From Candidatus Omnitrophota bacterium (GTDB taxonomy: Bacteria; Omnitrophota; Gorgyraeia; Gygaellales; Profunditerraquicolaceae): DNA of 64,000 nt. Shown here one piece after another: positions 1 through 12,835 of this stretch. Every line of letters starts with the position of its first letter. Position 1 is the stretch's first letter. The DNA lies in the NCBI GenBank assembly GCA_025453395.1, contig JALOQK010000008.1, positions 938 to 64,937 on the forward strand, given 5' to 3'. The translations under genes and the position numbers were made by a program. The notes beneath the pieces were generated by a model. It searched no databases. It was given only the letters and a program-made list of their open reading frames with translations, and was not told the DNA's origin.

Positions 1-43
<43 letters not shown>

Positions 44-330
44 AATCTTGCCGTAGGCAAGTTCACCTACGGTGAATCTCGTAAGAGAAAGTATAATGGC
101 TCTAAAACTACTTTTTGTTTTGTTTCCTTTTCCGCTTGGCTATAATTTAGAAAGAACGATAGATACACATCTATTTATGCGCCGCTTAGTGCTTCTCGCA
201 CACCTTGCCTTATTTGATGGCAAGTGTGCCGCGTATCAGCTTATAACACCCGGGCATAAATCACCTTGGCATAAATGATTGCCAAGTACGCCCTAGTGGG
301 CTGGATTGCCCGGTGTCGCGCATTCTGCGC

Positions 331-361
331 AACAAAAAAACGCCCCGTAAGTTACAGGGCG
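331..361 (-). terminator. Rho-independent terminator downstream of pilC, separating it from the rRNA leader
   Basis: Hairpin cgccccgtaagttacagggcg (7 bp stem, 1 mismatch) followed on the minus strand by a U7 tract (rc of aaaaaaa at 334-340). Confidence 0.45.
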
Positions 362-537
362 CTTGATTTTACGCCTTAACTTAAGTTAAAATTAAATTTC
401 AGATGATTTTGTCAATATCGCTTTTATTTATTCTCACGATATATTTGACCCGTGAAGATTTTAAATATACATCTTGCAGGGTAAGTAAATATAACAGAAC
501 ATGCTTTAATTGTCAAGAAATTTTTTTTATTTTTTTC

Positions 538-1743
538 TTACCTGTTTATCATCTCCGTAAGCTGGAATATCGGCATAAACAAAGCCACTACTATGCCTCC
601 TATAATCCCGCCTAAGAATACAATGACTAAAGGCTCTATCATGCTTGTAAGCCCTGATACCGCAACATCAACCTGCTCATCATAAAAATCAGCGATCTTA
701 GAAAGCATCTTTTCCAACTGCCCTGTTTGCTCTCCTACGCTTATCATGCGGCAGACCATCGCAGGAAAAATCTTACTTTTAGACAAAGGCTTATATATCG
801 GCTCTCCCTCGCGCACCGCGTTGCGGCAATTAAGGATAGTTTCTTCTATGACCTTATTTCCGGAAGTTGACGCTACTATATCTAAAGCATTCAGAACCGG
901 AACGCCGCTTTTCATTAAGGTGGCGAAGGTGCGCGAAAATTTGGCCACTCCTACTTTGCGAAAAAGCTCACCCGCTACCGGCAGCCTTAATTTTTGATAA
1001 TCAATATTATATCTACCGCGGACAGTGGCGGCATAACGTTTAAAAATAAACCCGGCAACAAAAAACCCTCCTATAACAATAGGGAACCATTTCTTGAAAA
1101 TATCGCTTATCCCCACCAATATCCTTGTTGGTAGCGGCAATGTTCCGCCAAGGCTGTCAAATATACCCTTAAAGGTAGGCACTACCTTTATTAATAACAA
1201 GGAAGTAATCGCAAAGGCAACTATTAAAACTACAACCGGATAAATCATACTGGAGCGCACCTTTCGGCTTAAAGAAGCTGCCTTCTCAAGGTAAGAAGCT
1301 AATCTATCCAAAACCTGATCCAACATACCGGAAGTTTCTCCTGCCTTGGCCATACTGACGAAAAGATCAGAAAATATATTAGGGTGTTTTGCCAAGGCAT
1401 CGCAAAAACTCATCCCGCCCTCTATATCCTGCTGCACGCTGGAAACAACATTTCTTAAGACTGGCTGTTCGATTTGTTCTGCCAATATATTTAAAGACTG
1501 CACCAGTGGAATACCTGCGTCAATCATGGTGGCTAATTGCCGAGAAAATATAACAATATCATCTATGCCGACCTTTCCTGTTTTCTTGCGCACAGAAACA
1601 GCTACCTTGGACTGTTCAATAGCTATAACAAACAACTCCTGCTTATGCAGGATTTCGCTTGCTTCGGTCTCGCTCTTGGCCTCAACTATTCCCTTAATGG
1701 TCTGCCCGCTTTTGCCTTTGGCAATATAATTAAAGGACAACAT
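538..1743 (-). CDS. pilC: Type IV pilus assembly / T2SS platform protein PilC (GspF family)
   Basis: 401 aa. Two GspF repeats with three TM segments. N-terminus MLSFNYIAKGKSGQTIKG...ASEILHKQEL is typical of PilC. Adjacent to PilB genes. Confidence 0.9.
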   Translation of the reverse strand: MLSFNYIAKGKSGQTIKGIVEAKSETEASEILHKQELFVIAIEQSKVAVSVRKKTGKVGIDDIVIFSRQLATMIDAGIPLVQSLNILAEQIEQPVLRNVVSSVQQDIEGGMSFCDALAKHPNIFSDLFVSMAKAGETSGMLDQVLDRLASYLEKAASLSRKVRSSMIYPVVVLIVAFAITSLLLIKVVPTFKGIFDSLGGTLPLPTRILVGISDIFKKWFPIVIGGFFVAGFIFKRYAATVRGRYNIDYQKLRLPVAGELFRKVGVAKFSRTFATLMKSGVPVLNALDIVASTSGNKVIEETILNCRNAVREGEPIYKPLSKSKIFPAMVCRMISVGEQTGQLEKMLSKIADFYDEQVDVAVSGLTSMIEPLVIVFLGGIIGGIVVALFMPIFQLTEMINR

Positions 1744-1762
1744 TTATATATTCCTCCTTGAT

Positions 1763-2824
1763 TTATTCCAAATTCTCCACAATATTCAGAAATGCGCTTA
1801 CTACCTGAGGATCGAATTGAATACCGCTGTTATTTTTTATTTCTGAAACAGCTTCTTCTTTTGTCAGAGGAACCTTACGGTACGAACGCGGCGAACGCAT
1901 AGCCTCGTAGGAGTCCGCCAGATTAATGATCCTTGAGCCCAAACAAATCTCTTCCCTCTTAAGCCCCTTCGGATAGCCAGACCCGTCATAATGTTCATGG
2001 TGTTGGCGGATAAGCTCAATAACTTCTTTCAAGAAAGTAAGCGGCTCTAAGATCTGCGCGGCGGTTGATGGATGACGGCGCATTTCCTGCCATTCTTCGG
2101 GTGTTAATTCCGAAGGCTTAATTAAAATACTATCCTGAATGCCCACTTTTCCTAAATCATGCAGCTCGCATGCCTCTCTTATCATTTCTATTTCCCTGGC
2201 CGGCAATTGCATTTCTTCGGCGATGCTAACCGCGTATTTGGAAACAAGCTGGGAGTGGCTGTGCGTATAATGATCACGAGCGTCTATTACCTGTGCCAGG
2301 ACTTTTATCGTGCGCAAATATGTTGCGCGCAAATCCTCATAAAGATGAGTCAAATTCCGCGCCGAATCTTCTATTCTGCTGGCTAAAAGCGCATTTTGTT
2401 TTTGCAAAGAATTATTTTGTTCCTGAAGATTATGCATGGACTTCCTGTGTGAAACAAGCATGGAATGTAATACAAAAGCCCTCTCAATGGAAAAAGAGGC
2501 TTTCTTATAATCTATGGGATTCTCTATACAATCAAATACCCCTAATGCCTGCAGATCATCCTGGGTAAAATTGACCGGGTTCTGGCTAAAAACTAAAATA
2601 CAGCAATCCGGATCATTCTTCCTTATCTCTTTTAAAAACCAATCAAAAACAGGAATATCCTCATTGACAATCACCACATCAAAAGCGTTATCTTTGAATT
2701 TTTCCAAAGCCAGTCCGATATCGCTTTCAAGATAAACCATCCAGCCTTCCTGATCTTTCTGTTTTTCTTTAAGCCGCGCCATCAAGGAATCGTTATTATC
2801 AACACCTACTACTAATATCTTCAT
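1763..2824 (-). CDS. Response regulator with HD-GYP c-di-GMP phosphodiesterase domain
   Basis: N-terminal CheY-like receiver (MKILVVGVD...). C-terminal HD motif (ELHDLGKVGI) and HHEHYDGSGYPKGL GYP motif. Confidence 0.85.
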   Translation of the reverse strand: MKILVVGVDNNDSLMARLKEKQKDQEGWMVYLESDIGLALEKFKDNAFDVVIVNEDIPVFDWFLKEIRKNDPDCCILVFSQNPVNFTQDDLQALGVFDCIENPIDYKKASFSIERAFVLHSMLVSHRKSMHNLQEQNNSLQKQNALLASRIEDSARNLTHLYEDLRATYLRTIKVLAQVIDARDHYTHSHSQLVSKYAVSIAEEMQLPAREIEMIREACELHDLGKVGIQDSILIKPSELTPEEWQEMRRHPSTAAQILEPLTFLKEVIELIRQHHEHYDGSGYPKGLKREEICLGSRIINLADSYEAMRSPRSYRKVPLTKEEAVSEIKNNSGIQFDPQVVSAFLNIVENLE

Positions 2825-2834
2825 TTTTTGTATC

Positions 2835-4550
2835 CTATTCCTCAGTAGTGATCCTGACCGCCTCTTCCAAAGAAGTAACCCCGTCTCTTACTTTTATAAA
2901 AGCATCATCTCGGAGGGTAAGCATCCCACAATTTTTTATGCAATAATCTTTGATTTCATCAATAGAGCGCTTTTTGGTAATCATCTCTCTTATCTTATCA
3001 TCAATAAGAGAAGTCTCCAGGATTGCTATTCTACCATAAAAACCCGTGTCATTACAATACTTACACCCATAGGAATTATACACCGGCATTCTTTCATCAA
3101 GGCCTAAGTTGCGCAAAACATCTTTGGGCACATCTATCTGTTTGCGGCACTTAAGACACAGTTTTCTGCACAGTCTCTGAGCGCACAACATCACCAGGCT
3201 TGATGAGACTAAAAACGGCTCAACCCCCATATCCAAAAGGCGGCTTATGCTTGATATCGCATCGTTTGTATGCAGCGTTGATAAAACAAGCTGTCCTGTA
3301 AGAGCGGCCTTAATGGCAATATCCGCGGTTTCAAAATCGCGGATCTCCCCGATCATGATTACATCCGGGCTCTGCCTTAATATCGCGCGCAATCCCGAAG
3401 CAAAATCAAGTTTAATCTCATGCCTGACCTGCACCTGCGTGATGCCTTCAATCTGATACTCTACGGGATCCTCAACTGTTACAATATTTTTCTCAGGGGT
3501 ATTTAACTGGTTTAAAACGGAATATAAAGTCGTGGATTTTCCTGAACCCGTGGGGCCGGTAACTAAGATCATGCCAAAAGGCTTGGCAATGGCTTGCTTA
3601 AAAACCTGGGTCGGCCTCTCTGAGAATCCAAGCTTATCCAAACCTATGGAAAGATTGGTCTTATCAAGCGCGCGCAAAACAAATTTTTGCCCGAAAGTAG
3701 TAGGCAGGCTTGAAACACGAAAATCTACTTCCCTGTTTTCAAAACGCACCTTGAACCTGCCATCTTGAGGGATACGGCTTTCGGTAATATCAAGATTCGA
3801 TATAATCTTAAGCCGCGCCAAGACCGCGTTCTGGTTATTCCGAGGGATTTTAAACGCCTCCAATAAAGACCCGTCTATGCGGTAACGCACTCTCAAGCAA
3901 TCGTATTCCGGCTCTAAATGAATGTCTGAAGCCCTGCGGCGCAATGCTTCGCTGAGCATTAAATCCACCATTTTGACAATCGGCGGCTTCTGGCTGTCTT
4001 TAACCGCGCTTGATAATTCTATCTGCTCGCTTCCGATCATCTCTACTGAGTCTTTGGCGTCTTGCGACATGGCTTCGCCAACAGTTTCATTAAAGATATT
4101 CTGGAAACTGGCGGGCTTAGGGGCATAATGAGCGTCGATGGCGTGGACAATTTCTTCTCTGGGGCTTAAGACTATATCAATATCACAACCAGTGCATGAT
4201 TTTAAATCATCCAAGGCAAAAACATTTAACGGATCGGCAATGGCCACGGTCAGGGTATTGCCTATGCGCGACAATGGGACAATCAAAGACTGCCTGGCCA
4301 TATGTTCAGGTATCAACTGTACAATATTAGGGTCAAATTTATATTTAGCTAAATGAAGCGTAGGCACATAAAGGTGCTGTGAAAAAACCGCCAATAGATC
4401 CTCTTCTGAAATAAATCCCTCGTCGATTAAGACTTTACGCAAAGAAGCCTGTTTTGTTTTCTGAATAGCCAAGGCCTTATCCAATTGCTCTTGGCTTAAA
4501 AGCTTGTTGGTAAGTAAAATATTGATAATATTATCTTTCAGCGTGGGCAT
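2835..4550 (-). CDS. pilB: Type IV pilus assembly ATPase PilB (GspE family) with MshEN-type N-domain
   Basis: 571 aa. T2SSE_N domain with both 24-aa MshEN motifs (LLSQEQLDKALAIQ / SLRKVLIDEGFISEEDLLAVFSQ). Walker A GPTGSGKST, Asp and His boxes, C-terminal tetracysteine CxxC...CxxC. Confidence 0.9.
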   Translation of the reverse strand: MPTLKDNIINILLTNKLLSQEQLDKALAIQKTKQASLRKVLIDEGFISEEDLLAVFSQHLYVPTLHLAKYKFDPNIVQLIPEHMARQSLIVPLSRIGNTLTVAIADPLNVFALDDLKSCTGCDIDIVLSPREEIVHAIDAHYAPKPASFQNIFNETVGEAMSQDAKDSVEMIGSEQIELSSAVKDSQKPPIVKMVDLMLSEALRRRASDIHLEPEYDCLRVRYRIDGSLLEAFKIPRNNQNAVLARLKIISNLDITESRIPQDGRFKVRFENREVDFRVSSLPTTFGQKFVLRALDKTNLSIGLDKLGFSERPTQVFKQAIAKPFGMILVTGPTGSGKSTTLYSVLNQLNTPEKNIVTVEDPVEYQIEGITQVQVRHEIKLDFASGLRAILRQSPDVIMIGEIRDFETADIAIKAALTGQLVLSTLHTNDAISSISRLLDMGVEPFLVSSSLVMLCAQRLCRKLCLKCRKQIDVPKDVLRNLGLDERMPVYNSYGCKYCNDTGFYGRIAILETSLIDDKIREMITKKRSIDEIKDYCIKNCGMLTLRDDAFIKVRDGVTSLEEAVRITTEE

Positions 4551-4554
4551 TTTA

Positions 4555-6261
4555 TTATTCGTCAGCTACGGTAACCCTGACAACCTCTTCAATAGTAGTA
4601 AGCCCTCTTAGGGCTGAGTCTATGCCTTCTTCGCGTAAAGTCCTCATCCCCTCTTTCCTGGCTTGATCTTTAATCTGATATTCTTGAGCATGAGAAAGGA
4701 TCATATCCCGTATTTTAACGCTTAAGATAATGACTTCCGCGATAGCAACTCTGCCGCTATAACCAGTATTAAAACATAACGGACATTTCTTGGGGCGGTA
4801 AAATTCACTTTTACTTTTATCTAATTTTAATGCCTCTGCTATTTCCGGGCTTAATGTATATTTTTCTTTACAGTTGGAACAGATCTTACGCACCAACCTT
4901 TGCGCCACAATACCCACCACCGCCGAATTAATCAAGAATGGCTCTACTCCCATATTGATCAGGCGCACAATTGATCCAGCCGCAGTAGTAGTATGCAAAG
5001 TAGAAATAACCAAGTGCCCGGTCAAGGCGCTTTTTATGGCGATGTCCACTGTCTCATAATCACGGATCTCGCCGATCATGATAATGTTAGGGTCTTGCCT
5101 GAGGATTGCGCGCAGGGAACTGGCGAAAGTAAGGCCAATGTCGGGCTTAATGGTCACCTGATTTATCCCATCGAGCTGAAACTCAACCGGATCCTCAACA
5201 GTAACAATGTTTTTATGCGGATCATCCACAAATTTAAGTATGGAATAAAGAGTGGTAGTTTTTCCGCTTCCCGTGGGCCCGGTGACCAAAAACATTCCAT
5301 GCGGCATCTTTGAAGCTTGTTGGATCTTAGTAACATTATTATCAGAAAATCCCAATTTTGCTAAATCCAAGTTGGCTTGGGATTTATCAAGGATACGCAA
5401 TGCCACTTTCTCGCCAAAGCTTGAAGGAATAATGGAAACACGAAAATCTATTTCTCTTCCTGATATGCGCGCCTTAAAACGTCCATCCTGCGGCAGGCGG
5501 TGCTCAGCGATATTAAGATCTGACATGACCTTAACGCGTGAGACTATGGAAGCATGCATGTTAGCCGGGGGCGACTGTTGTTCCTGAAGAACACCGTCAA
5601 TACGAAAACGGACGCGCATTTTCTTGTCCCAAGGCTCGATCAAAATATCTGAAGATTTCTTCTTAACAGCGTCTTCAAGGATAAGATTGGTTACTCTTAT
5701 AACCGGCACTTCGCGGCTGACCCGGGTTAACTCCTGTTCGCTGGGTTGGTTTTCTTTCTCCTCTTTAATAAGTTCAATCCCGGGGACATTTATCTCCTTG
5801 ACCAAATCCTCCATCTCGTCTTTTGTAACATTGGGATAATACAGCTCTATAGCGGCAATAATATCCTGCATCCCGGAAATAATAGGATTAATATTATACC
5901 CGGTCAGGGATTTTACATGGTCAATAGCAAAAATATTCAAAGGATCAACCATAGCCAAAGTAATAGTCTGGCCTATTTTAGAAACGGCTATGATCTGATA
6001 ATGACGGGCGATTTCTACGGGGATTATTCTAGCTGTAGCGGGATCGATCTTAAAACGTTTTAAATCAATAAGCGGCAGGCCCAACCCCTGGCTTAGGATA
6101 GAAACCAAATCCTGTTCCTTGATAAAACCTAAAGAGACAACAATATCGCTTAAGCGGCCTGCCTTTTCCTTCTGGATAGCAATAGCCTTATCCAATTGCT
6201 CGGAAGACAAAAGCTTACTATTAACCAACACTTCTTTAAGACGGTCCTTTAAGGAAAGCAT
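4555..6261 (-). CDS. Second PilB/GspE-family ATPase (tandem paralog) with MshEN-type N-domain
   Basis: 568 aa. MshEN motifs (LKEVLVNSKLLSSEQLDKAIAIQ / RLSDIVVSLGFIKEQDLVSILSQ). Walker A GPTGSGKTT. C-terminal CSNCK...CPLCFNTG zinc motif. Confidence 0.9.
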   Translation of the reverse strand: MLSLKDRLKEVLVNSKLLSSEQLDKAIAIQKEKAGRLSDIVVSLGFIKEQDLVSILSQGLGLPLIDLKRFKIDPATARIIPVEIARHYQIIAVSKIGQTITLAMVDPLNIFAIDHVKSLTGYNINPIISGMQDIIAAIELYYPNVTKDEMEDLVKEINVPGIELIKEEKENQPSEQELTRVSREVPVIRVTNLILEDAVKKKSSDILIEPWDKKMRVRFRIDGVLQEQQSPPANMHASIVSRVKVMSDLNIAEHRLPQDGRFKARISGREIDFRVSIIPSSFGEKVALRILDKSQANLDLAKLGFSDNNVTKIQQASKMPHGMFLVTGPTGSGKTTTLYSILKFVDDPHKNIVTVEDPVEFQLDGINQVTIKPDIGLTFASSLRAILRQDPNIIMIGEIRDYETVDIAIKSALTGHLVISTLHTTTAAGSIVRLINMGVEPFLINSAVVGIVAQRLVRKICSNCKEKYTLSPEIAEALKLDKSKSEFYRPKKCPLCFNTGYSGRVAIAEVIILSVKIRDMILSHAQEYQIKDQARKEGMRTLREEGIDSALRGLTTIEEVVRVTVADE

Positions 6262-6293
6262 CGGCTTTTTAGCGTCATACTTTTCAAAGTTAT

Positions 6294-6737
6294 TTATTCA
6301 CTGTAATATTTGGAAATGGCCTGTTTTATATCTGAAGAAGTAGAAACAAAGGTCTGGATATTGCATCCGGTCAGCATTTCCACATCCTCGATAGCGTGGA
6401 CATTCAAAGGATTAGACATGGCTAAGGTCAAATTATTGCCTATTTTGTCTATCGGGATAAGCACGTATTGCTTGGCAACCCGGCACGGAACAATATTGGC
6501 TACATCAGAGCTTATTTCATAATTACCAAGCGGCAAATACGGAAAACCATACTGCGCGGTTAAGGATTGGGCGATATCTTCTTCCTTGGCAAACCCCAGC
6601 TCCACCATGATCTCTCCGATAAGGCCGCCTCTTTCTTTCTGGCAGTTCAACGCCTTATCAAGCTGGTCTGCGGATACAAGCCCGCGGTCCACCAACAATT
6701 CACCTAATTGCTTATTAATTATTCTTTTTATCGGCAT
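6294..6737 (-). CDS. Stand-alone MshEN (T2SSE_N) domain protein, putative c-di-GMP receptor
   Basis: 147 aa. Both tandem 24-residue MshEN motifs with a 5-aa spacer: QLGELLVDRGLVSADQLDKALNCQ-KERGG-LIGEIMVELGFAKEEDIAQSLTAQ. No ATPase domain. Confidence 0.75.
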   Translation of the reverse strand: MPIKRIINKQLGELLVDRGLVSADQLDKALNCQKERGGLIGEIMVELGFAKEEDIAQSLTAQYGFPYLPLGNYEISSDVANIVPCRVAKQYVLIPIDKIGNNLTLAMSNPLNVHAIEDVEMLTGCNIQTFVSTSSDIKQAISKYYSE

Positions 6738-6740
6738 AAT

Positions 6741-8162
6741 CTAAATAGAAATCCTATTTCCCCCTTGGGCCTTGGCCATTTTTAAAGATTCCCTTGCCTT
6801 TAAGAAAAGCTCATCCGAGCTTACTCCGTCAATGGGGTTTTCGCTTACCGCCCCGCTTATAGTCAGATGCATATCTTGCGCTTGGGGATTACCTAAGGAA
6901 ACTTCTACCTTCTTTCTTACTTCTTCAGCCATGCGTATGGAAGCGCGCTTATTCTTATCTTGAAGCACTACAGCGAATTCGTTATCGCCTGTGCGCGCCG
7001 CGCGGTCAGACTCTGAAATAAAATCCCGGATTATGTTGGCTGTTTTCTTCAAAGCCGCTTCCGTCTGCAAAGCCCCTAATTTATGGCTATAATTCTGAAA
7101 ATTATCTATATTAAATATAACTAAAGAACACGGTTTCTGATAAACAATAGCCCTTTTGATTTCTTCTTGAAGACGGCTTTTAATAAAACTTTCATTATAC
7201 AAGCCGGTAAGGTTGTCTTTAATCTCAAGCTCATCCACCCAACCGGAAAGCATATCATTTTCAACCGCGATAGAAAGCTGCTTGGCAAAAATATCCAGTA
7301 ATTCCACATCTTCTTCATGATAACAAAAATCTTCCCTGTTATTTCCAATTACAAGAATACTGCTTAACGAACCTCTGACAAAAATCGGCAGGCTTAAAAA
7401 ATTCTTCAGCCTAAATCTTTCATAAATAAGTTCGCGGTCTTTTTCCTGGATATAATTGGCTTTATCTACTGTAAGCGGCCTTGTTAAATTGGAGATTTTC
7501 GGAAAAATATCATCGCCCTTGATTACTTTTACCTTAGAAAGATACTGGGCATTAGCTCCATCAACAGCCTTCATGAAAAAATCACCATTGTCGGACTCAC
7601 GCGACAAAATAAAAGCAACATCAGAGTTTGCCAAGGTGCGGGCTTTCTGCACCGAAAGAAGCAATATCTCTTCAAGCTTTAAACCTTGCGAAACAAGCGA
7701 ACTTATCTGAAGAAGGCTGGAAAGCACAAGCACTCTTTTCTGTATTTCCAGATTTATCTTGGTAGTTCTTTCGCTATATCCCTTAAGCTCATCCATATTG
7801 CTGCGGATCTTAGAAGTAAGCTGATTTAAAGCATCCCCCAGGTATCCTACTTCATCACCTTTGCTGGTCTTAACGATATGCTGAAAATCCCCCTTGGCGA
7901 TAATCCGGGCTTGAGCGCTTATTGAAGAAACTCTGTCAAAGACCTCTTTAATGATAAAAAACCCCGTAACAGCTACAATAACACTTATTGTCAATACCCA
8001 CATAATCTGTGGACTTACCGTTAAATTGGTGCTAGGAAGAAAATAATTCATAATAACATAACCTAACACCAAAAAAGGCAATACAAGCATAAGATAAAAG
8101 ACCATCCTCAGCTTGTATTTAAGATTGCCCGGACTTAAAAGGACATTTATCTGTTTATTCAT
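6741..8162 (-). CDS. Membrane sensor with HAMP-GAF and a degenerate GGDEF domain
   Basis: 473 aa. Two N-terminal TM helices and a HAMP-like linker. GGDEF-fold C-terminus in which GG(D/E)EF is replaced by GDNEF (RAARTGDNEFAVVL) and the upstream DxD by NIDNF. Confidence 0.8.
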   Translation of the reverse strand: MNKQINVLLSPGNLKYKLRMVFYLMLVLPFLVLGYVIMNYFLPSTNLTVSPQIMWVLTISVIVAVTGFFIIKEVFDRVSSISAQARIIAKGDFQHIVKTSKGDEVGYLGDALNQLTSKIRSNMDELKGYSERTTKINLEIQKRVLVLSSLLQISSLVSQGLKLEEILLLSVQKARTLANSDVAFILSRESDNGDFFMKAVDGANAQYLSKVKVIKGDDIFPKISNLTRPLTVDKANYIQEKDRELIYERFRLKNFLSLPIFVRGSLSSILVIGNNREDFCYHEEDVELLDIFAKQLSIAVENDMLSGWVDELEIKDNLTGLYNESFIKSRLQEEIKRAIVYQKPCSLVIFNIDNFQNYSHKLGALQTEAALKKTANIIRDFISESDRAARTGDNEFAVVLQDKNKRASIRMAEEVRKKVEVSLGNPQAQDMHLTISGAVSENPIDGVSSDELFLKARESLKMAKAQGGNRISI

Positions 8163-8188: not shown

Positions 8189-8217
8189 ATTATACCTTGT
8201 ATCTTATTATATTGCAA
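8189..8217 (-). promoter_or_regulatory. Sigma70-type promoter for the GGDEF-like gene
   Basis: Minus strand reads TTGCAA-N17-TATAAT (rc of 8212-8217 and 8189-8194), about 25 nt upstream of the ATG at 8162. Confidence 0.4.
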
Positions 8218-8223
8218 TATATT

Positions 8224-9909
8224 TTAGAAATTGGCGCATTCCTGTGCCAAAGATTCCTTAGGAATGCCTGTATCAATGAAATCCCAAGGCAGCCTATCTT
8301 CTATTTTGCCTGCCAACAGGTAGTCTTGCGGGTTGATTCCAGAGCTAATAAAAGCATCCTGCCAAAGCTTAAAATTAAACTGGTCGTCCCAGGCCTGAAA
8401 ACGCCCGCCCTGGCTAAAGACATGTTCAATGACCCCGCCTAAACGCCTATCGCCTCTGGAGAATACCGCCTCAATGAAACTCATATGCGGATCATGAAAA
8501 TTAAGCCTTAAACTTTTGTGCTTAGAGGCTTTATCTCTTAGGATCTTTTGCTTAGCAAACATCGCCTCTATGTTATCCATAGCCTGCCACTGAAAACAGG
8601 TATGCGGCTTGGGGATCATCGTATTAACGCTTATATTTATCTGCGCCCGGGGCAAACCGATTTTTCTTCTTAATTCAGAAACCTTTACCGAAAAATCAAT
8701 TATGCCCTCTAAATCCTCTTGCGTTTCAGAAGGCACCCCTGACATAAAATATAATTTTACCCTCTGATAACCTGCCGAATACGCTTTTTCCATGGCATCA
8801 AAGAAAACATCCTCATCAAATTCTTTATTCAGCACCCGGCGCAGCCTTTGGCTGCCTGCTTCAGGGGCAAAAGTAAGCCCGGTCTTTTTCACCTTAGAAA
8901 GAATTCCCGCGATATCGCCGGTTAAGTCTTTGGGTTTTATGGAAGGAAGCGACACGCTTACTGCCTTTTGGCTAAAACAAGCGAATAAATCTTTGAGTAA
9001 TAAATCTACCCGCGGATAGTCGCTGACGCAAAGCCCGGCCAAAGAAATATCCTCATACCCGGTAGAAGAATATATTTCCTGCGCCGTAGAGATAAGTTTG
9101 TCTTTGCTTCTAAAACGCAAAGGATGATAAATTCTATTGGCCTGGCAGAAACGGCACTTATAAGGGCAGCCGCGCATTACCTCAAGCATCATGCGGTCAT
9201 GGATAATCTCGATATAAGGCACAAGCCACTTCACAGGGAAAAAGCTACTGTCCAGATCCTTGATAAAACGCTTTTTTATCTTCTTGGCCGGCAAAGAAGG
9301 CACATAAACGCCTTCTATATGGGAAAACTCTTTAAGCAATTCTTCTTTAAGCAGACTGCCTGATTTATAATCATCTTTGAGCCTTGCATAAAGCCCCACT
9401 ATCTCCGGGAGGGCCTCTTCAGCTTCCCCAATAAGAAAAAGATCAAAGAAATCACGCATCGGTTCAGGGTTAAAACAACAAACACCCCCTGCGATGACAA
9501 GGGGAAAATCTTTATTGCGCTCTACAGATCTCAAAGGGATATTGCCTAAATCAAGCATGCCCAGCACATTCACATAACCCAATTCATATCCTAAAGAAAA
9601 CCCCGCGAAATCAAAATCTTTAAGCGGCCGGGCTTCTTCAAGAGAAGAAAACAAGAGGTTATTCGCGCGCAAAATTTGCTCCATATCCGCAGCAGGGGCA
9701 AAAAACCTTTGGCAGCAAACCCCATCCAGCTGATTTAACAAGCCATAAATTATCCTGATACCTAAATTACTCATCCCAACTTCATACAAATCCGGGAAAC
9801 ATAAAGCAAAGTTTACCTTGTTATCCTCAAATTTCTTTGAGGAAACATTCCATTCTCCCCCGGTATAACGCGCCGGCTTTCTTACCTGTAATAAATAATC
9901 TTCAGTCAT
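8224..9909 (-). CDS. Radical SAM protein, TIGR03960-like (B12-binding-like N-domain plus radical SAM core)
   Basis: 561 aa. CxxxCxxC cluster in EVMRGCPYKCRFCQA. N-terminus MTEDYLLQVRKPARYTGGEW typical of the family. Sits upstream of rodA as in many genomes. Confidence 0.8.
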   Translation of the reverse strand: MTEDYLLQVRKPARYTGGEWNVSSKKFEDNKVNFALCFPDLYEVGMSNLGIRIIYGLLNQLDGVCCQRFFAPAADMEQILRANNLLFSSLEEARPLKDFDFAGFSLGYELGYVNVLGMLDLGNIPLRSVERNKDFPLVIAGGVCCFNPEPMRDFFDLFLIGEAEEALPEIVGLYARLKDDYKSGSLLKEELLKEFSHIEGVYVPSLPAKKIKKRFIKDLDSSFFPVKWLVPYIEIIHDRMMLEVMRGCPYKCRFCQANRIYHPLRFRSKDKLISTAQEIYSSTGYEDISLAGLCVSDYPRVDLLLKDLFACFSQKAVSVSLPSIKPKDLTGDIAGILSKVKKTGLTFAPEAGSQRLRRVLNKEFDEDVFFDAMEKAYSAGYQRVKLYFMSGVPSETQEDLEGIIDFSVKVSELRRKIGLPRAQINISVNTMIPKPHTCFQWQAMDNIEAMFAKQKILRDKASKHKSLRLNFHDPHMSFIEAVFSRGDRRLGGVIEHVFSQGGRFQAWDDQFNFKLWQDAFISSGINPQDYLLAGKIEDRLPWDFIDTGIPKESLAQECANF

Positions 9910-11117: not shown

Positions 11118-12835
11118 ATAAGCCCTTCCTCAAACATGCGCGTAATAATTTCTTTCGCTATTAAGCAGGCATAATAGCCTGCCTTGCCGTTTTCCAAGAA
11201 AACACAAACAGCAAATTTAGGGCGATCAGATGGGAAAAAACCGGCAAACCATCCGTGCGCAAAAGATCCAGTTACCTGCGCGGAACCTGTTTTGCCTGAT
11301 ACCTTAACTGGCAAATCCGCCAAAATACTGGCTGTACCAGCTGGATCTGATACGGCCTTACGCATGCCATCACTTATGTAATTAACTATCTCTTGCTTGG
11401 AAATAACTTTTATTTTCTTGCCAGAATGCCCCCCTGCGTTATATCCAGCGGCATATTTAGTAACATGCGGAACAACCAAAAAACCACCATTAGCAAAACA
11501 GGCAGTAACTCTTAGTATTTGTATAGGCGTGGTCAATAAATCACCCTGGCCAATAGAAAAATTGGCCGTATCCCCATCATACCATTTTTGATCCCGGCTT
11601 GATTTCTTCCAGGCTACTGATGGCACAAACCCGGATACCTCATATGGAAGATCTATCCCTGTGGTTTTTGCCAAACCAAATCTCAGAGAATAATCTGTTA
11701 TTAGTTGCGGGCCCAAGGCTAAGCCTGTATGATAAAAAAATACATCGCAGGAACCGGCTATGGCCTGTATTAAATCTTGACGGTTATGCGTATCCCAGCA
11801 CTTAAACTGCCGCCTGCCTATTGTTAGAAATCCAGGGCAAATAAAAGAAGTCCCGAGATTTATTTTCTTTTTTTCCAGGCCCGCAACAGCCACAATTAAC
11901 TTAAATATAGAACCAGGCGCATACGAAGCGCTTATCGCGCGATTCAAAAAAGGCGAATGCTTGTCGTTTAAAACCTCTTCAATAGAAGAAGAGCCTTTGA
12001 TAAAAATACCCGGGTCAAAATCCGGGAAACTTGCTAACGCCAGGATTTCCCCTGTATCAGGCTGCATAATAATAACCGCGCCTTTTTGGTTTTGCATCGC
12101 CTGTTGGACGATTTGCTGGATCTTAATATCTAAGGTTAGGCCCACATCGCCACCATTAACAGCAGGCTTATATCCTATTACTCTGACTAATTTTCCGACA
12201 TGATCTACTTCCGCGGATATCGCCCCATCGCCTTGGCGTAAAATATAATCATATTTTTCTTCTGCCCCGCCAAATCCCACAATATCTGCCGGCTTATAAC
12301 CGTAATCGGATAATTTATAAAGCCGCCACTGGTCTATTTGGCTTAGATACCCTAACACATGGCATGCCAGATTGCCATACGGATAATAGCGTAATGGATG
12401 CGGCTGTATGATAATTCCGGGTGAATCAAATTTAGCCTGCTCAAGGGCGATAAGCTTTTTGTTATCAGAAATCGTATCCAAAACAACTGGCAGCGATTCA
12501 GAGATATAACGCGACCTGAATCTCTTCCTAAGCTTCTGCTCATCCTGCTCTAATACAAAGGCGATTTTCCTTAACGCCCTTTCAAGTTCATCTTTATTTT
12601 GCCCTGAAACCATCACATCAAAAGCCAGGTAATTGTCCGCAATAGGATTTCCGTTACGGTCCAAGATCCTTCCTCTTGCGCCTTCTTGAGGCAGAACCCG
12701 GATGCAGTTCTTTTGGCTGAGCAAGCTGAATTTGGCCCCCTGGATTATTGCAAGATTAAAAACCCCAAAGCCCAAAACAACAAAGCTGGCGATAAAAACC
12801 GATATTACAAGTTTTGTCCTGTTCGGATAAGTCAT
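11114..12835 (-). CDS. mrdA: Penicillin-binding protein 2 (elongasome transpeptidase)
   Basis: 573 aa. N-terminal TM. SxxK (SIFK) and KTG (KTGSAQ) motifs. Overlaps mreD and rodA by 4 nt each. Confidence 0.9.
   Translation of the reverse strand: MTYPNRTKLVISVFIASFVVLGFGVFNLAIIQGAKFSLLSQKNCIRVLPQEGARGRILDRNGNPIADNYLAFDVMVSGQNKDELERALRKIAFVLEQDEQKLRKRFRSRYISESLPVVLDTISDNKKLIALEQAKFDSPGIIIQPHPLRYYPYGNLACHVLGYLSQIDQWRLYKLSDYGYKPADIVGFGGAEEKYDYILRQGDGAISAEVDHVGKLVRVIGYKPAVNGGDVGLTLDIKIQQIVQQAMQNQKGAVIIMQPDTGEILALASFPDFDPGIFIKGSSSIEEVLNDKHSPFLNRAISASYAPGSIFKLIVAVAGLEKKKINLGTSFICPGFLTIGRRQFKCWDTHNRQDLIQAIAGSCDVFFYHTGLALGPQLITDYSLRFGLAKTTGIDLPYEVSGFVPSVAWKKSSRDQKWYDGDTANFSIGQGDLLTTPIQILRVTACFANGGFLVVPHVTKYAAGYNAGGHSGKKIKVISKQEIVNYISDGMRKAVSDPAGTASILADLPVKVSGKTGSAQVTGSFAHGWFAGFFPSDRPKFAVCVFLENGKAGYYACLIAKEIITRMFEEGLI

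What the first reader, a model, noticed from the sequence alone, without database searches (positions are those of the whole stretch)
538..8162. Compact c-di-GMP-wired type IV pilus / T2SS-like motor module abutting an rRNA operon
Six co-directional genes encode PilC, an HD-GYP response regulator, two PilB/GspE ATPases, a stand-alone MshEN domain protein and a degenerate GGDEF sensor. That puts three MshEN-type c-di-GMP receptor domains, one c-di-GMP phosphodiesterase and one likely inactive cyclase-fold protein in a single locus with the pilus motor. No pilin, PilM/N/O/P, secretin or PilT gene is present in the window. Downstream of pilC is a terminator and then the 16S leader. This looks like a self-contained second-messenger control unit for a pilus or secretion motor rather than a canonical pil operon.
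Basis: partly seen in the sequence, partly recalled or inferred. Interest (0 to 1): 0.7.

Follow-up and report, generated by a model that had tools for sequence, protein, structure and literature searches.

The report
Omnitrophota type IV pilus motor module
The six genes are real and make up the motor half of a type IV pilus machine kept by hundreds of Omnitrophota species, but relatives show it is a rearranged piece of an ordinary pilus operon, and only one of its three supposed c-di-GMP sensor domains still looks able to bind the messenger.

Summary
Six co-directional minus-strand genes (8162-538) encode a membrane HAMP-GAF protein with a dead GGDEF domain, a free-standing 147-aa MshEN/GSPII protein, two PilB-type ATPases (45% identical, all catalytic motifs intact), a pseudo-receiver-HD-GYP phosphodiesterase and PilC. 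A hairpin plus T-run and the 5' end of a 16S rRNA follow. No pilin, PilMNOPQ or PilT gene lies in the 64 kb.

- The contig is from Candidatus Omnitrophota. The same order, MurA-MreBCD-PBP2-RodA-rSAM-GGDEF*-MshEN-PilB1-PilB2-HD-GYP-PilC-rrn, recurs in 44 of 51 species genomes that span it.
- In more divergent Omnitrophota the same block reads GGDEF*-PilT-MshEN-PilB-PilB-PilC-pilin-PilMNO(P)Q. So this is the motor part of a canonical T4aP operon. In this lineage the locus has no PilT or structural genes, has an HD-GYP gene, and ends at the rrn operon.
- Both PilB N-domains lack the glycines whose mutation abolishes c-di-GMP binding in MshE. Only the free-standing MshEN keeps the pocket.
- There is no active cyclase. 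HD-GYP is absent from some relatives.

I rate it a new variant of a known kind, of moderate interest. The unusual parts are the dual PilB paralogues and the GSPII domain encoded as a separate protein.

The parts
8189..8217 (-). promoter-like site (TTGCAA-17-TATAAT) in the 61-nt gap between the radical-SAM gene and the first gene of the module
   Evidence: 10 of 12 matches. A consensus match only; function is inferred.
6741..8162 (-). membrane HAMP-GAF-GGDEF* protein (473 aa). It has two TM helices (20-38 and 53-71) joined by a 14-aa loop. The cyclase fold is catalytically dead (GDNEF, no RxxD I-site).
   Evidence: Pfam. TM segments. Family-wide degeneracy: G-D-[DN]-E-F, [TS]E[IV]D at the I-site, GTP-binding N/D not conserved, n=76. 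Even more degenerate in deeper lineages: RIDNSTF, RIENDQF.
6294..6737 (-). free-standing full-length MshEN/GSPII domain protein (147 aa). It is the only plausible c-di-GMP receptor of the locus.
   Evidence: Pfam MshEN. NCBIfam NF053729 c-di-GMP_motif 62.9 bits against a cut-off of 38. [quoted passage not shown] Motif residues are invariant except position 1, which is Q10 and L39. It is the most conserved of the six proteins, median 73% identity.
4555..6261 (-). PilB1, a T4aP-type extension ATPase (568 aa). The N-terminal MshEN domain has degenerate c-di-GMP motifs.
   Evidence: T2SSE 5e-138. Best solved relative is Geobacter PilB. Walker A/B, Asp and His boxes and the four Zn cysteines are invariant in 75 orthologues. 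Position 3 of the motifs is T/K and S, and position 24 of motif II is G.
2835..4550 (-). PilB2, a second T4aP-type extension ATPase (571 aa), 45% identical to PilB1. Its MshEN motifs are degenerate.
   Evidence: T2SSE 3e-131. 45% identity to PilB1. PDB hits. Catalytic motifs are invariant in 64 orthologues. Position 3 of the motifs is I and R.
1763..2824 (-). pseudo-receiver-HD-GYP protein (353 aa), a predicted c-di-GMP phosphodiesterase
   Evidence: HD_5 8e-39. H..HD..H..HHExxDGxGYP is invariant in 56 orthologues. The position equivalent to CheY D57 is N here and K/R in most orthologues, never D. The gene is absent in 4 of 51 related loci.
538..1743 (-). PilC platform protein (401 aa)
   Evidence: T2SSF x2, 2.8e-66. 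Best NCBIfam families are T4P PilC, below their cut-offs. Three hydrophobic segments.
488..516 (-). near-consensus sigma-70 promoter (TTGACA-17-TATATT with TG) just after pilC, probably rrn P1
   Evidence: 11 of 12 matches. A TTGACA-type promoter is found in this position in 45 of 49 related loci.
338..364 (-). GC-rich hairpin plus T-run. It is the likely end of pil transcripts, but it lies downstream of the promoter above, inside the rrn leader.
   Evidence: Found in 35 of 49 loci by strict criteria. RNAalifold gives 11 pairs, 7 with compensatory changes.
1..42 (-). 5' end of the 16S rRNA (the operon runs off the window)
   Evidence: Rfam SSU_rRNA_bacteria positions 1-42, E 1e-7. Full 16S-tRNA-tRNA-23S follows pilC in 7 of 7 long orthologous loci. 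The 16S 5' motif lies 326-816 nt after pilC in 45 of 48 loci.

Best explanation
The locus is the cytoplasmic and inner-membrane motor half of the type IVa pilus machine of Candidatus Omnitrophota, expressed as a six-gene operon.

Two paralogous, catalytically intact PilB-type hexameric ATPases work on one PilC platform to polymerise pilins that are encoded elsewhere in the genome. The PilB1/PilB2 duplication is older than the split between the Omnitrophota lineages sampled here.

Three signalling-derived proteins ride with the motor.
1. A free-standing GSPII/MshEN domain looks like the detached first N-terminal domain of a PilF-like multi-GSPII ATPase. I infer that it docks on the ATPases in trans and is the only c-di-GMP-binding site left, because the ATPases' own N-domains have lost the essential glycines.
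2. A membrane-anchored HAMP-GAF protein ends in a GGDEF fold that is a non-catalytic pseudo-enzyme. I infer it acts as a scaffold or input device.
3. Only in the window's lineage, a pseudo-receiver-HD-GYP phosphodiesterase is present. I infer that it lowers local c-di-GMP.

Compared with deeper relatives, this lineage's locus lacks pilT and the pilin-pilMNOPQ genes, and the single rrn operon follows pilC.

Shown here: gene content, motif states, orthology, synteny, and the complete operon in relatives. Inferred: ligand binding, protein contacts, the direction of regulation, and the direction of the evolutionary changes.
For: Domain calls and motif states.

Both ATPases score best against T4aP PilB. 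TIGR02538 gives 626.8 and 619.3 bits, and Geobacter PilB gives 5e-164 and 6e-157.

All ATPase motifs and the Zn cysteines are invariant in 64-75 orthologues.

Synteny. At least 586 species genomes carry a relative of the free-standing MshEN, and the best 80 are nearly all labelled Omnitrophota. All six genes lie in the same order in 44 of 51 loci that span the module. The rrn operon follows directly.

Deeper Omnitrophota loci L089, L090 and L091 carry PilT(355-361 aa)-MshEN-PilB1-type-PilB2-type-PilC-prepilin, preceded by GGDEF* in L089 and L091. The prepilin begins KGFTLVEIM. PilM, PilO and a secretin follow in L089, and PilM, PilN and PilO in L090. PilB1/PilB2 orthology is preserved in all three.

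The motor genes are more conserved than MurA, PBP2 or RodA in the same genomes. Median identities are 73, 69, 68 and 63% against 53, 50 and 60%.

The free-standing MshEN has a confident model (pLDDT 86.6) that matches PilF GSPII-A and MshEN. It keeps G at position 3, G at position 10, the leucine clusters and Q at position 24 in both halves. Its motif II starts with Leu, as in the 6-nM binder PilF GSPII-B. A Lys-to-Leu change at position 1 of that domain's motif I (K167L) binds at 2 nM (PMC11731258).

Seymour et al. report most T4aP components in nearly all Omnitrophota genomes (PMC10066038).
Against: No structural pilus gene, prepilin peptidase or PilT was found in this lineage. They are absent from the 64 kb window and from the 3.5 kb beyond the rrn operon in one 647-kb contig. 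So the partners of the motor in this lineage were not demonstrated.

Both ATPases and PilC fall below NCBIfam's equivalog cut-offs.

c-di-GMP binding by the free-standing MshEN is uncertain.
- Position 1 of motif I is Gln, which lies outside the tested R/K/L set.
- None of the half-motifs fits the published patterns.
- The model resembles the non-binding PilF GSPII-A (TM 0.85) more than ligand-bound MshEN (TM 0.72).
- In GSPII-A even a restored consensus did not bind until inter-subdomain contacts were removed (PMC12002112).

No active diguanylate cyclase was seen in the window.
Confidence: 0.7

Rival explanations
1. No second-messenger wiring. The free-standing MshEN is a rigid, non-binding adaptor, a 'landing pad' like PilF GSPII-A, that recruits partners to the ATPases. 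The GGDEF* protein is a scaffold. HD-GYP is a late, dispensable passenger, or it acts on another nucleotide.
For: The best fold and sequence match of the free-standing protein is the non-binding PilF GSPII-A. None of the motifs fits the published patterns. The GGDEF fold is dead in every lineage. HD-GYP is missing in 4 of 51 relatives and in all three deep loci. There is no cyclase in the window. The landing-pad idea for GSPII-A comes from PMC12002112.
Against: Every pocket residue of the free-standing protein except position 1 is invariant in 85-117 sequences. That is hard to explain without a ligand. Leu at position 1 is compatible with nM binding. NCBIfam's c-di-GMP_motif model scores it at 62.9 bits against a cut-off of 38. 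HD-GYP catalytic residues are invariant where the gene exists.
Confidence: 0.3
2. The locus is a self-contained c-di-GMP control unit with three MshEN receptors, one phosphodiesterase and one inactive cyclase. It governs a pilus or secretion motor and is distinct from a canonical pil operon.
For: The domain inventory is correct. All three N-domains pass NCBIfam NF053729. The locus as such is conserved in hundreds of genomes without structural genes.
Against: The essential position-3 glycines are replaced in both halves of both ATPases, family-wide (mutational basis). The orthologous block is part of a complete T4aP operon in deeper lineages. The GGDEF and HD-GYP genes are each dispensable in some relatives.
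Confidence: 0.12
3. In this lineage one PilB paralogue has taken over retraction, replacing the PilT missing from the locus. The pair would then be an extension and retraction couple.
For: PilT lies between GGDEF* and MshEN in the deep loci (between RodA and MshEN in L090, which lacks GGDEF*). It is absent there in 77 of 77 window-type loci, where the largest gap is 384 nt.
Against: Both PilB paralogues already coexist with PilT in the deep lineages, so the duplication did not arise to replace PilT. Both keep the PilB architecture: N1D, the Zn motif and a length of about 570 aa. PilT could be encoded elsewhere; this was not testable here.
Confidence: 0.1
4. The module drives a type II secretion pseudopilus, or secretion of the giant Omnitrophota proteins, rather than a pilus.
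For: PilB1 scores almost as well against GspE (605 bits) as against PilB (619 bits). PilC hits GspF at 397 bits. Secretion and pilus genes flank giant genes in Omnitrophota (bioRxiv 10.64898/2026.06.07.730766).
Against: The GspE, GspF and XpsF cut-offs are not met. Orthologous loci carry PilT, a type IVa prepilin, PilM, PilN, PilO and a secretin, not GspC, GspL or GspM. No giant gene lies in the window.
Confidence: 0.05

Closest known systems
Thermus thermophilus PilF (T4aP/DNA-uptake ATPase with three N-terminal GSPII domains)
   Same: A PilB-type ATPase core with a Zn tetracysteine motif, preceded by more than one GSPII/MshEN domain of unequal c-di-GMP competence. The free-standing protein here is most like PilF GSPII-A by sequence (74.5 bits) and by fold (TM 0.85). 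Its motif II starts with Leu, as in the 6-nM binder GSPII-B.
   Different: Here the extra GSPII domain is a separate 147-aa polypeptide, encoded 32 nt upstream of PilB1 (adjacent or overlapping in relatives). There are two ATPase paralogues. The domains attached to the ATPases are the degenerate ones, whereas in PilF the outermost domain is the non-binder.
Vibrio cholerae MshE / MshEN domain (PDB 5HTL)
   Same: The same fold (TM 0.72) and the same two-fold 24-residue pocket layout. NCBIfam's c-di-GMP_motif model is passed.
   Different: The position-1 arginines are absent: Q and L in the free-standing protein. The position-3 glycines are lost in both ATPases. No half-motif fits the strict or relaxed published pattern.
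Acinetobacter baylyi PilB + TfpB, two extension motors for one T4aP (PMC8213720; review PMC11656802)
   Same: Two PilB-family ATPases serve one T4aP system. The question of separate hexamers or hetero-oligomers is open there too.
   Different: These are not TfpB orthologues: NF053534 gives 453 and 447 bits against a cut-off of 850. Here the two genes are adjacent, 4 nt apart in this window, and conserved across every Omnitrophota lineage sampled. No CpiA-like inhibitor was seen.
FimX-PilZ-PilB control of T4P assembly in Pseudomonas and Xanthomonas (review PMC11656802)
   Same: Degenerate c-di-GMP-turnover domains and a pseudo-receiver that lacks the phospho-aspartate act as regulators of PilB's N-terminal domain.
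   Different: There is no EAL or PilZ domain here. The degenerate GGDEF lacks an I-site and is membrane-anchored behind HAMP and GAF. The candidate receptor is an MshEN domain.
Xanthomonas RpfG (REC-HD-GYP) acting with GGDEF proteins and PilZ on pilus ATPases. Cited from my own knowledge of Ryan et al. 2010 and 2012; not checked here.
   Same: A REC-HD-GYP protein and a GGDEF-domain protein are linked to pilus motor ATPases.
   Different: The receiver here cannot be phosphorylated. The GGDEF is catalytically dead. Physical interaction is untested.
Canonical T4aP operon of deeper Omnitrophota lineages (L089-L091)
   Same: Orthologous GGDEF*, MshEN, PilB1, PilB2 and PilC in the same order, in two of the three loci in the same place after mreBCD-pbp2-rodA(-rSAM).
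   Different: Those loci have PilT before MshEN, a prepilin after PilC, PilM/N/O and a secretin in those that extend far enough, and no HD-GYP. In the window's lineage the locus ends at the rrn operon.

Membership tests
T4aP assembly ATPase PilB (TIGR02538) | T2SSE ATPase core with Walker A, Asp box, Walker B and His box | tested here: met
   All motifs are present in both proteins and invariant in 64-75 orthologues.
T4aP assembly ATPase PilB (TIGR02538) | tetracysteine Zn motif and an N-terminal GSPII/N1D domain | tested here: met
   CxxC...CxxC is invariant. MshEN domains lie at about residues 1-145.
T4aP assembly ATPase PilB (TIGR02538) | score at or above NCBIfam's equivalog cut-off (675.65 bits) | tested here: not met
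   626.8 bits (PilB2) and 619.3 bits (PilB1). This is the best-scoring family for both, but below the cut-off.
T4aP assembly ATPase PilB (TIGR02538) | encoded with PilC, PilT, prepilin and PilMNOPQ | tested here: inconclusive
   Only PilC is present in this window. The feature is fully met at the orthologous locus of deeper Omnitrophota.
MshEN c-di-GMP receptor domain | GSPII/MshEN two-subdomain fold | tested here: met
   Free-standing protein: AF2 pLDDT 86.6; TM 0.85 to PilF GSPII-A and 0.72 to 5HTL. For the ATPases, sequence homology only.
MshEN c-di-GMP receptor domain | profile match to the 53-residue c-di-GMP motif (NF053729, cut-off 38 bits) | tested here: met
   62.9 bits (free-standing), 48.5 (PilB1), 43.9 (PilB2).
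MshEN c-di-GMP receptor domain | two 24-residue motifs RLGxx[LVI][LVI]xxG[LVI][LVI]xxxxLxxxLxxQ, or the relaxed pattern of Wang et al. 2016 | tested here: not met
   0 of 6 half-motifs match either pattern.
MshEN c-di-GMP receptor domain | Gly at motif position 3 in both halves (G11I/L and G40I variants of MshE bind c-di-GMP poorly or not at all) | tested here: not met
   This verdict applies to the two ATPases. PilB1 has T/K and S, PilB2 has I and R, family-wide; mutational basis. The free-standing protein does meet it: G12 and G41 are invariant.
MshEN c-di-GMP receptor domain | position 1 is R, K or L (extended consensus, PMC11731258) | tested here: inconclusive
   In the free-standing protein, motif II starts with L39 (fits) and motif I with Q10 (an untested residue; K9 precedes it).
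MshEN c-di-GMP receptor domain | measured c-di-GMP binding | not testable with these tools
   Needs ITC or DRaCALA.
HD-GYP c-di-GMP phosphodiesterase | HD metal site and the HHExxDGxGYP motif | tested here: met
   invariant in 56 orthologues.
Two-component response regulator (REC) | phospho-acceptor Asp (CheY D57), with T87 and K109 | tested here: not met
   The D57 position is N here and K/R in the family, never D. T87 is S here and L in the family. K109 is N here. The Pfam score of 23.9 bits is below the 30.2 cut-off.
GGDEF diguanylate cyclase | GG[DE]EF active site and GTP/metal-binding residues | tested here: not met
   GDNEF here, G-D-[DN]-E-F in the family, RIDNSTF and RIENDQF in the deep lineages.
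GGDEF-type c-di-GMP receptor (I-site) | RxxD five residues upstream of the signature | tested here: not met
   SESD here, [TS]E[IV]D in the family.
Type II secretion system (GspE/GspF) | equivalog scores, and GspC/L/M/D plus pseudopilins in the neighbourhood | tested here: not met
   GspE 566 and 605 bits against a cut-off of 630; GspF 397 against 424. Relatives carry T4aP parts instead.
TfpB second extension ATPase (NF053534) | equivalog score of at least 850 bits | tested here: not met
   453 and 447 bits.

The most novel reading that the evidence does not exclude
Omnitrophota run their type IVa pilus with a split, heteromeric extension motor. Two PilB paralogues whose own c-di-GMP sites are dead form mixed hexamers, or alternate, on a single PilC. 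They receive their second-messenger input in trans from a free-standing GSPII domain with a variant (Q/L) pocket. A membrane HAMP-GAF pseudo-cyclase and, in one large lineage, a pseudo-receiver HD-GYP set the local ligand level. This would be a phylum-wide alternative design for T4P motor control in ultra-small, probably host-attached bacteria.
Probability: 0.25. Interest if true: 0.6.

Novelty: new variant of a known kind. Interest (0 to 1): 0.4.

Why it matters
Type IV pili are thought to mediate attachment of Omnitrophota to other cells (PMC10066038). The phylum is uncultured, ultra-small and probably predatory or parasitic.

The motor genes here are more conserved than core cell-wall enzymes in the same genomes. 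That points to a central role.

The locus offers a natural experiment on two open questions in the pilus field: why some systems use two extension ATPases, and how the N-terminal GSPII domains regulate PilB. Here evolution has separated a ligand-competent-looking GSPII domain from two ATPases with ligand-dead ones.

The proteins are small, soluble and easy to express, so binding and complex formation can be tested directly without culturing the organism.

The result also cautions against reading a Pfam MshEN hit as a c-di-GMP receptor. The Pfam model matched only the C-terminal subdomain, not the binding motif.

Tried and rejected
1. Apparent PilB1-PilB2 gene fusions in L035 and L060 would have argued for a hetero-oligomer. 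Both proved to be artefacts of 100-N masked stretches at the junction.

2. I tested whether pilin-pilMNOPQ sits just beyond the rrn operon in this lineage. In the one long contig that could be read (L092, 647 kb), the 3.5 kb after rrn holds an EF-hand-like repeat protein, an ORF6N protein and hypotheticals, with no pilus genes. A second long contig ended too early.

3. A six-frame prepilin-motif search of the window found nothing.

4. Rfam searches of the pilC-16S spacer, at gathering and at E<=1, found only the 16S end and a chance Phe_leader hit.

5. RNAalifold on the promoter-to-hairpin segment supported only the terminal hairpin, not a larger structured RNA. An invariant second TTGACA in that segment has no usable -10 at 16-18 nt, so I did not call it a P2 promoter.

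6. The supplementary tables of Seymour et al. that list T4P loci were cut in the stored copy.

7. The idea that free-standing MshEN proteins are a new architecture was rejected. Many clusters of 145-210 aa at 40-60% identity exist in the global library.

8. The radical-SAM gene upstream (TIGR03960) was considered as part of the module and rejected. From my own knowledge, it is an old neighbour of rodA in other phyla. L090 has the pil genes without it.

Full report
**What is in the window**

All long genes of the 64-kb window lie on the minus strand. The six ORFs named in the finding are present at the stated coordinates, and their Pfam matches leave no doubt.
- 8162-6741: HAMP, GAF and GGDEF.
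- 6737-6294: a protein consisting of an MshEN domain only.
- 6261-4555 and 4550-2835: MshEN plus T2SSE (E 5e-138 and 3e-131).
- 2824-1763: a weak receiver domain plus HD_5/HD.
- 1743-538: two T2SSF repeats.

The gaps between the genes are 3, 32, 4, 10 and 19 nt, so this is one operon. A promoter-like site lies in the 61-nt gap upstream. The first 42 bases of the window are the 5' end of a bacterial 16S rRNA on the same strand.

The rest of the window is housekeeping. It holds the radical-SAM gene TIGR03960, rodA, pbp2, mreDCB, murA, lgt, lspA, ileS, the whole dcw cluster, riboflavin genes, ftsK, rodZ and pnp. No pilin, PilM/N/O/P/Q or PilT is among them, and a six-frame prepilin-motif search found nothing.

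**Where it comes from and how conserved it is**

The exact proteins occur on a 65-kb JGI metagenome contig, which NCBI labels Candidatus Omnitrophica.

The 147-aa MshEN protein has more than 100 listed relatives at 72-83% identity, nearly all of 147-149 aa. A scan of one genome per GTDB species found at least 586 genomes with a relative, and the best 80 are nearly all labelled Omnitrophota.

In those 80 loci plus four metagenome contigs the order is fixed: MurA-MreB-MreC-MreD-PBP2-RodA-rSAM-GGDEF-MshEN-PilB1-PilB2-HD-GYP-PilC. Of the 51 species loci that span the module:
- 44 have all six genes in this order;
- 4 truly lack HD-GYP;
- 2 truly lack the GGDEF gene;
- 1 has an HD-GYP gene after PilC.

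In 7 of 7 long loci PilC is followed directly by a co-directional 16S-tRNA-tRNA-23S operon. In 45 of 48 loci the 16S 5' end lies 326-816 nt after pilC.

Across these genomes the motor proteins are more conserved than core wall enzymes. Median identities are MshEN 73%, PilB1 69%, PilB2 68% and PilC 63%, against MurA 53%, PBP2 50% and RodA 60%.

**The decisive comparison**

A more distant free-standing homologue (53% identical) from the 50%-identity representative library also belongs to Omnitrophota. Three loci from that deeper group show what the module is.
- L089: GGDEF*-PilT-MshEN-PilB-PilB-PilC-prepilin-PilM-x-PilO-x-secretin.
- L090: MurA-MreBCD-PBP2-RodA-PilT-MshEN-PilB-PilB-PilC-prepilin-TPR-GT2-PilM-PilN-PilO.
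- L091: RodA-rSAM-GGDEF*-PilT-MshEN-PilB-PilB-PilC-prepilin.

The first ATPase there is orthologous to PilB1 and the second to PilB2. The 355-361-aa ATPase carries the PilT signature AIRSLIREGK. The 110-aa protein begins KGFTLVEIM, a classical type IVa prepilin.

So the block is the motor part of a canonical T4aP operon, and the PilB duplication and the free-standing MshEN are old. Compared with these loci, the window's lineage has no PilT between GGDEF and MshEN; the largest gap there is 384 nt in 77 loci. It has an HD-GYP gene between PilB2 and PilC, and the rrn operon sits where the pilin genes sit in the relatives. I read this as the derived state, but the direction of change is inferred.

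In one long contig of the window's lineage the 3.5 kb beyond rrn holds no pilus genes. Where the structural genes are in this lineage was therefore not established here. Seymour et al. report most T4aP components in nearly all Omnitrophota genomes (PMC10066038).

**State of the signalling domains**

The Pfam MshEN model matched only residues about 60-145, the C-terminal subdomain. The c-di-GMP pocket is formed by two 24-residue motifs at about residues 7-62 (PMC5013675).

None of the six half-motifs fits the strict pattern or the authors' relaxed pattern. All three domains do pass NCBIfam's 53-residue c-di-GMP_motif profile.

Residue by residue, over 64-117 orthologues:
- PilB1 has T/K and S at position 3 of the two halves, K at position 10, and G at position 24 of motif II.
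- PilB2 has I and R at position 3, and N and P/S at position 1.

In MshE, G11 and G40 substitutions gave poor or no binding. In PilF GSPII-A, Ser at position 1 and His or Arg at position 24 prevent binding, and Ala at position 3 lowers affinity. I therefore predict that both ATPase N-domains do not bind c-di-GMP in the canonical way.

The free-standing protein keeps L2, G3, G10, L17, L21 and Q24 in both halves, invariantly. It deviates only at position 1, with Q10 (116 of 117 sequences) and L39 (117 of 117). Leu at position 1 of motif II is exactly what the 6-nM binder PilF GSPII-B has. Its K167L variant, which puts Leu at position 1 of motif I, binds at 2 nM, and the consensus has been extended to R/K/L (PMC11731258). 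In MshE, changes of Arg9 altered affinity less than five-fold. Binding by the free-standing protein is therefore plausible; I put it at about even odds.

Its AF2 model is confident (pLDDT 86.6). The model is closest to the non-binding PilF GSPII-A (TM 0.85) and next to ligand-bound MshEN (TM 0.72). That keeps the adaptor alternative alive.

The GGDEF domain is dead throughout the family. It reads G-D-[DN]-E-F in this lineage and RIDNSTF or RIENDQF in the deep lineages. It has no RxxD I-site, and the GTP-binding residues are not conserved. The protein has two TM helices joined by a 14-residue loop, so it is not a periplasmic ligand sensor.

The HD-GYP catalytic residues are invariant. Its receiver domain has N, or K/R in orthologues, at the phospho-acceptor position, and never Asp. 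It is a pseudo-receiver.

**The two ATPases**

They are 45% identical. Both match Geobacter and Myxococcus T4aP PilB best. Both have PilB as the top NCBIfam family, although below its cut-off.

Walker A/B, the Asp and His boxes and the four Zn cysteines are invariant in all orthologues, so both are working enzymes under strong selection.

A precedent for two extension ATPases on one pilus exists in Acinetobacter baylyi, with PilB and TfpB (PMC8213720; review PMC11656802). The proteins here are not TfpB orthologues.

Apparent PilB1-PilB2 fusions in two genomes were artefacts of masked N runs.

**Mechanism proposed**

Shown: a conserved operon encodes two active PilB paralogues, one PilC, a free-standing GSPII domain with a nearly intact pocket, a dead-GGDEF membrane protein and an intact HD-GYP with a pseudo-receiver. 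Its orthologues sit in complete T4aP operons.

Inferred:
- The two ATPases power extension on the shared PilC, either as mixed hexamers or alternately.
- The free-standing GSPII domain docks on them, like the detached first domain of a PilF-type ATPase, and supplies the only c-di-GMP site.
- HAMP-GAF-GGDEF* acts as a membrane scaffold or input.
- HD-GYP lowers local c-di-GMP in the lineage that has it.

The core set, present in every locus that spans it, is MshEN + PilB1 + PilB2 + PilC. GGDEF* and HD-GYP are accessories.

**Comparison and novelty**

Every component belongs to a known kind, and free-standing MshEN proteins are common globally. Full-text searches found no description of this gene set in Omnitrophota or elsewhere.

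The combination is unusual in two ways. It has dual adjacent PilB paralogues with degenerate N-domains plus a trans-encoded, pocket-conserving GSPII domain, fixed across the Omnitrophota lineages sampled. In one large lineage it is also severed from the structural genes and parked against the rrn operon. I rate it a new variant of a known kind, of moderate interest.

**Side observation**

The pilC-16S spacer has a conserved layout. A near-consensus promoter appears in 45 of 49 loci. About 140 nt further lies a covarying GC-rich hairpin with a T-run, found in 35 of 49 loci by strict criteria, with 7 of 11 pairs showing compensatory changes. A boxA-like block then follows ahead of the 16S. Whether it attenuates rrn transcription, ends a short RNA, or only stops pil read-through is open.

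Noticed in passing
window 537..43 (minus strand); the same spacer in L003-L088: The pilC-16S spacer has a conserved layout. A near-consensus sigma-70 promoter (window 516..488) occurs in 45 of 49 loci. A median of 143 nt downstream lies a covarying GC-rich hairpin plus T-run (window 364..338), found in 35 of 49 loci, with 7 of 11 pairs showing compensatory changes. A boxA-like block (window about 165..140, ...TTCTTTCTAAATTATAGCCAAGCGG...) and the 16S follow. A terminator-like hairpin between the probable rrn promoter and boxA is odd. It could be an attenuator, the end of a short RNA, or a boxB-like element. Rfam finds nothing here.
   Followed up: partly
window about 413..408 (minus strand); alignment A2 columns 78-83: A second TTGACA, within ATTGACAAATTTnGGTAGTTAAT, is almost invariant between the promoter and the hairpin in 22 aligned loci. 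It has no usable -10 element at 16-18 nt. It may be a protein-binding site or an RNA motif.
   Followed up: partly
L089 13181-13311; window 8224-9909: In L089 the complete T4aP operon is followed by a DUF2344 gene. From my own knowledge, that is the usual partner of the TIGR03960 radical-SAM gene, which precedes the pil module in the window and in L091. The pil operon may therefore have been inserted between a normally adjacent rSAM-DUF2344 pair. Where DUF2344 lies in the window's lineage is unknown.
   Followed up: no
L035 about 9000-9100; L060 about 12280-12380: Both genome records carry a run of exactly 100 N at the PilB1/PilB2 junction. This mimics a 1170-aa PilB-PilB fusion when ORFs are called mechanically.
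   Followed up: yes
window 8224-64000: The pil module sits at the end of a long minus-strand run of cell-envelope and division genes: ftsK, rodZ, the mraZ-to-ftsA dcw cluster, murA, mreBCD, pbp2, rodA. The block from murA to the rrn operon is syntenic across dozens of species whose MurA is only about 53% identical.
   Followed up: partly
L092 17573-18145: Directly after the rrn operon in a 647-kb Omnitrophota contig lies a secreted-looking protein made of EF-hand-like D-x-[DN]-x-D-G repeats. An ORF6N (phage antirepressor-like) gene follows it.
   Followed up: no
proteins P0121, P0122, P0126, P0132: The best-scoring global relatives of the 147-aa protein are very long proteins (1040-1345 aa) with 4-7 tandem MshEN domains. 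Their organisms and contexts are unknown.
   Followed up: no
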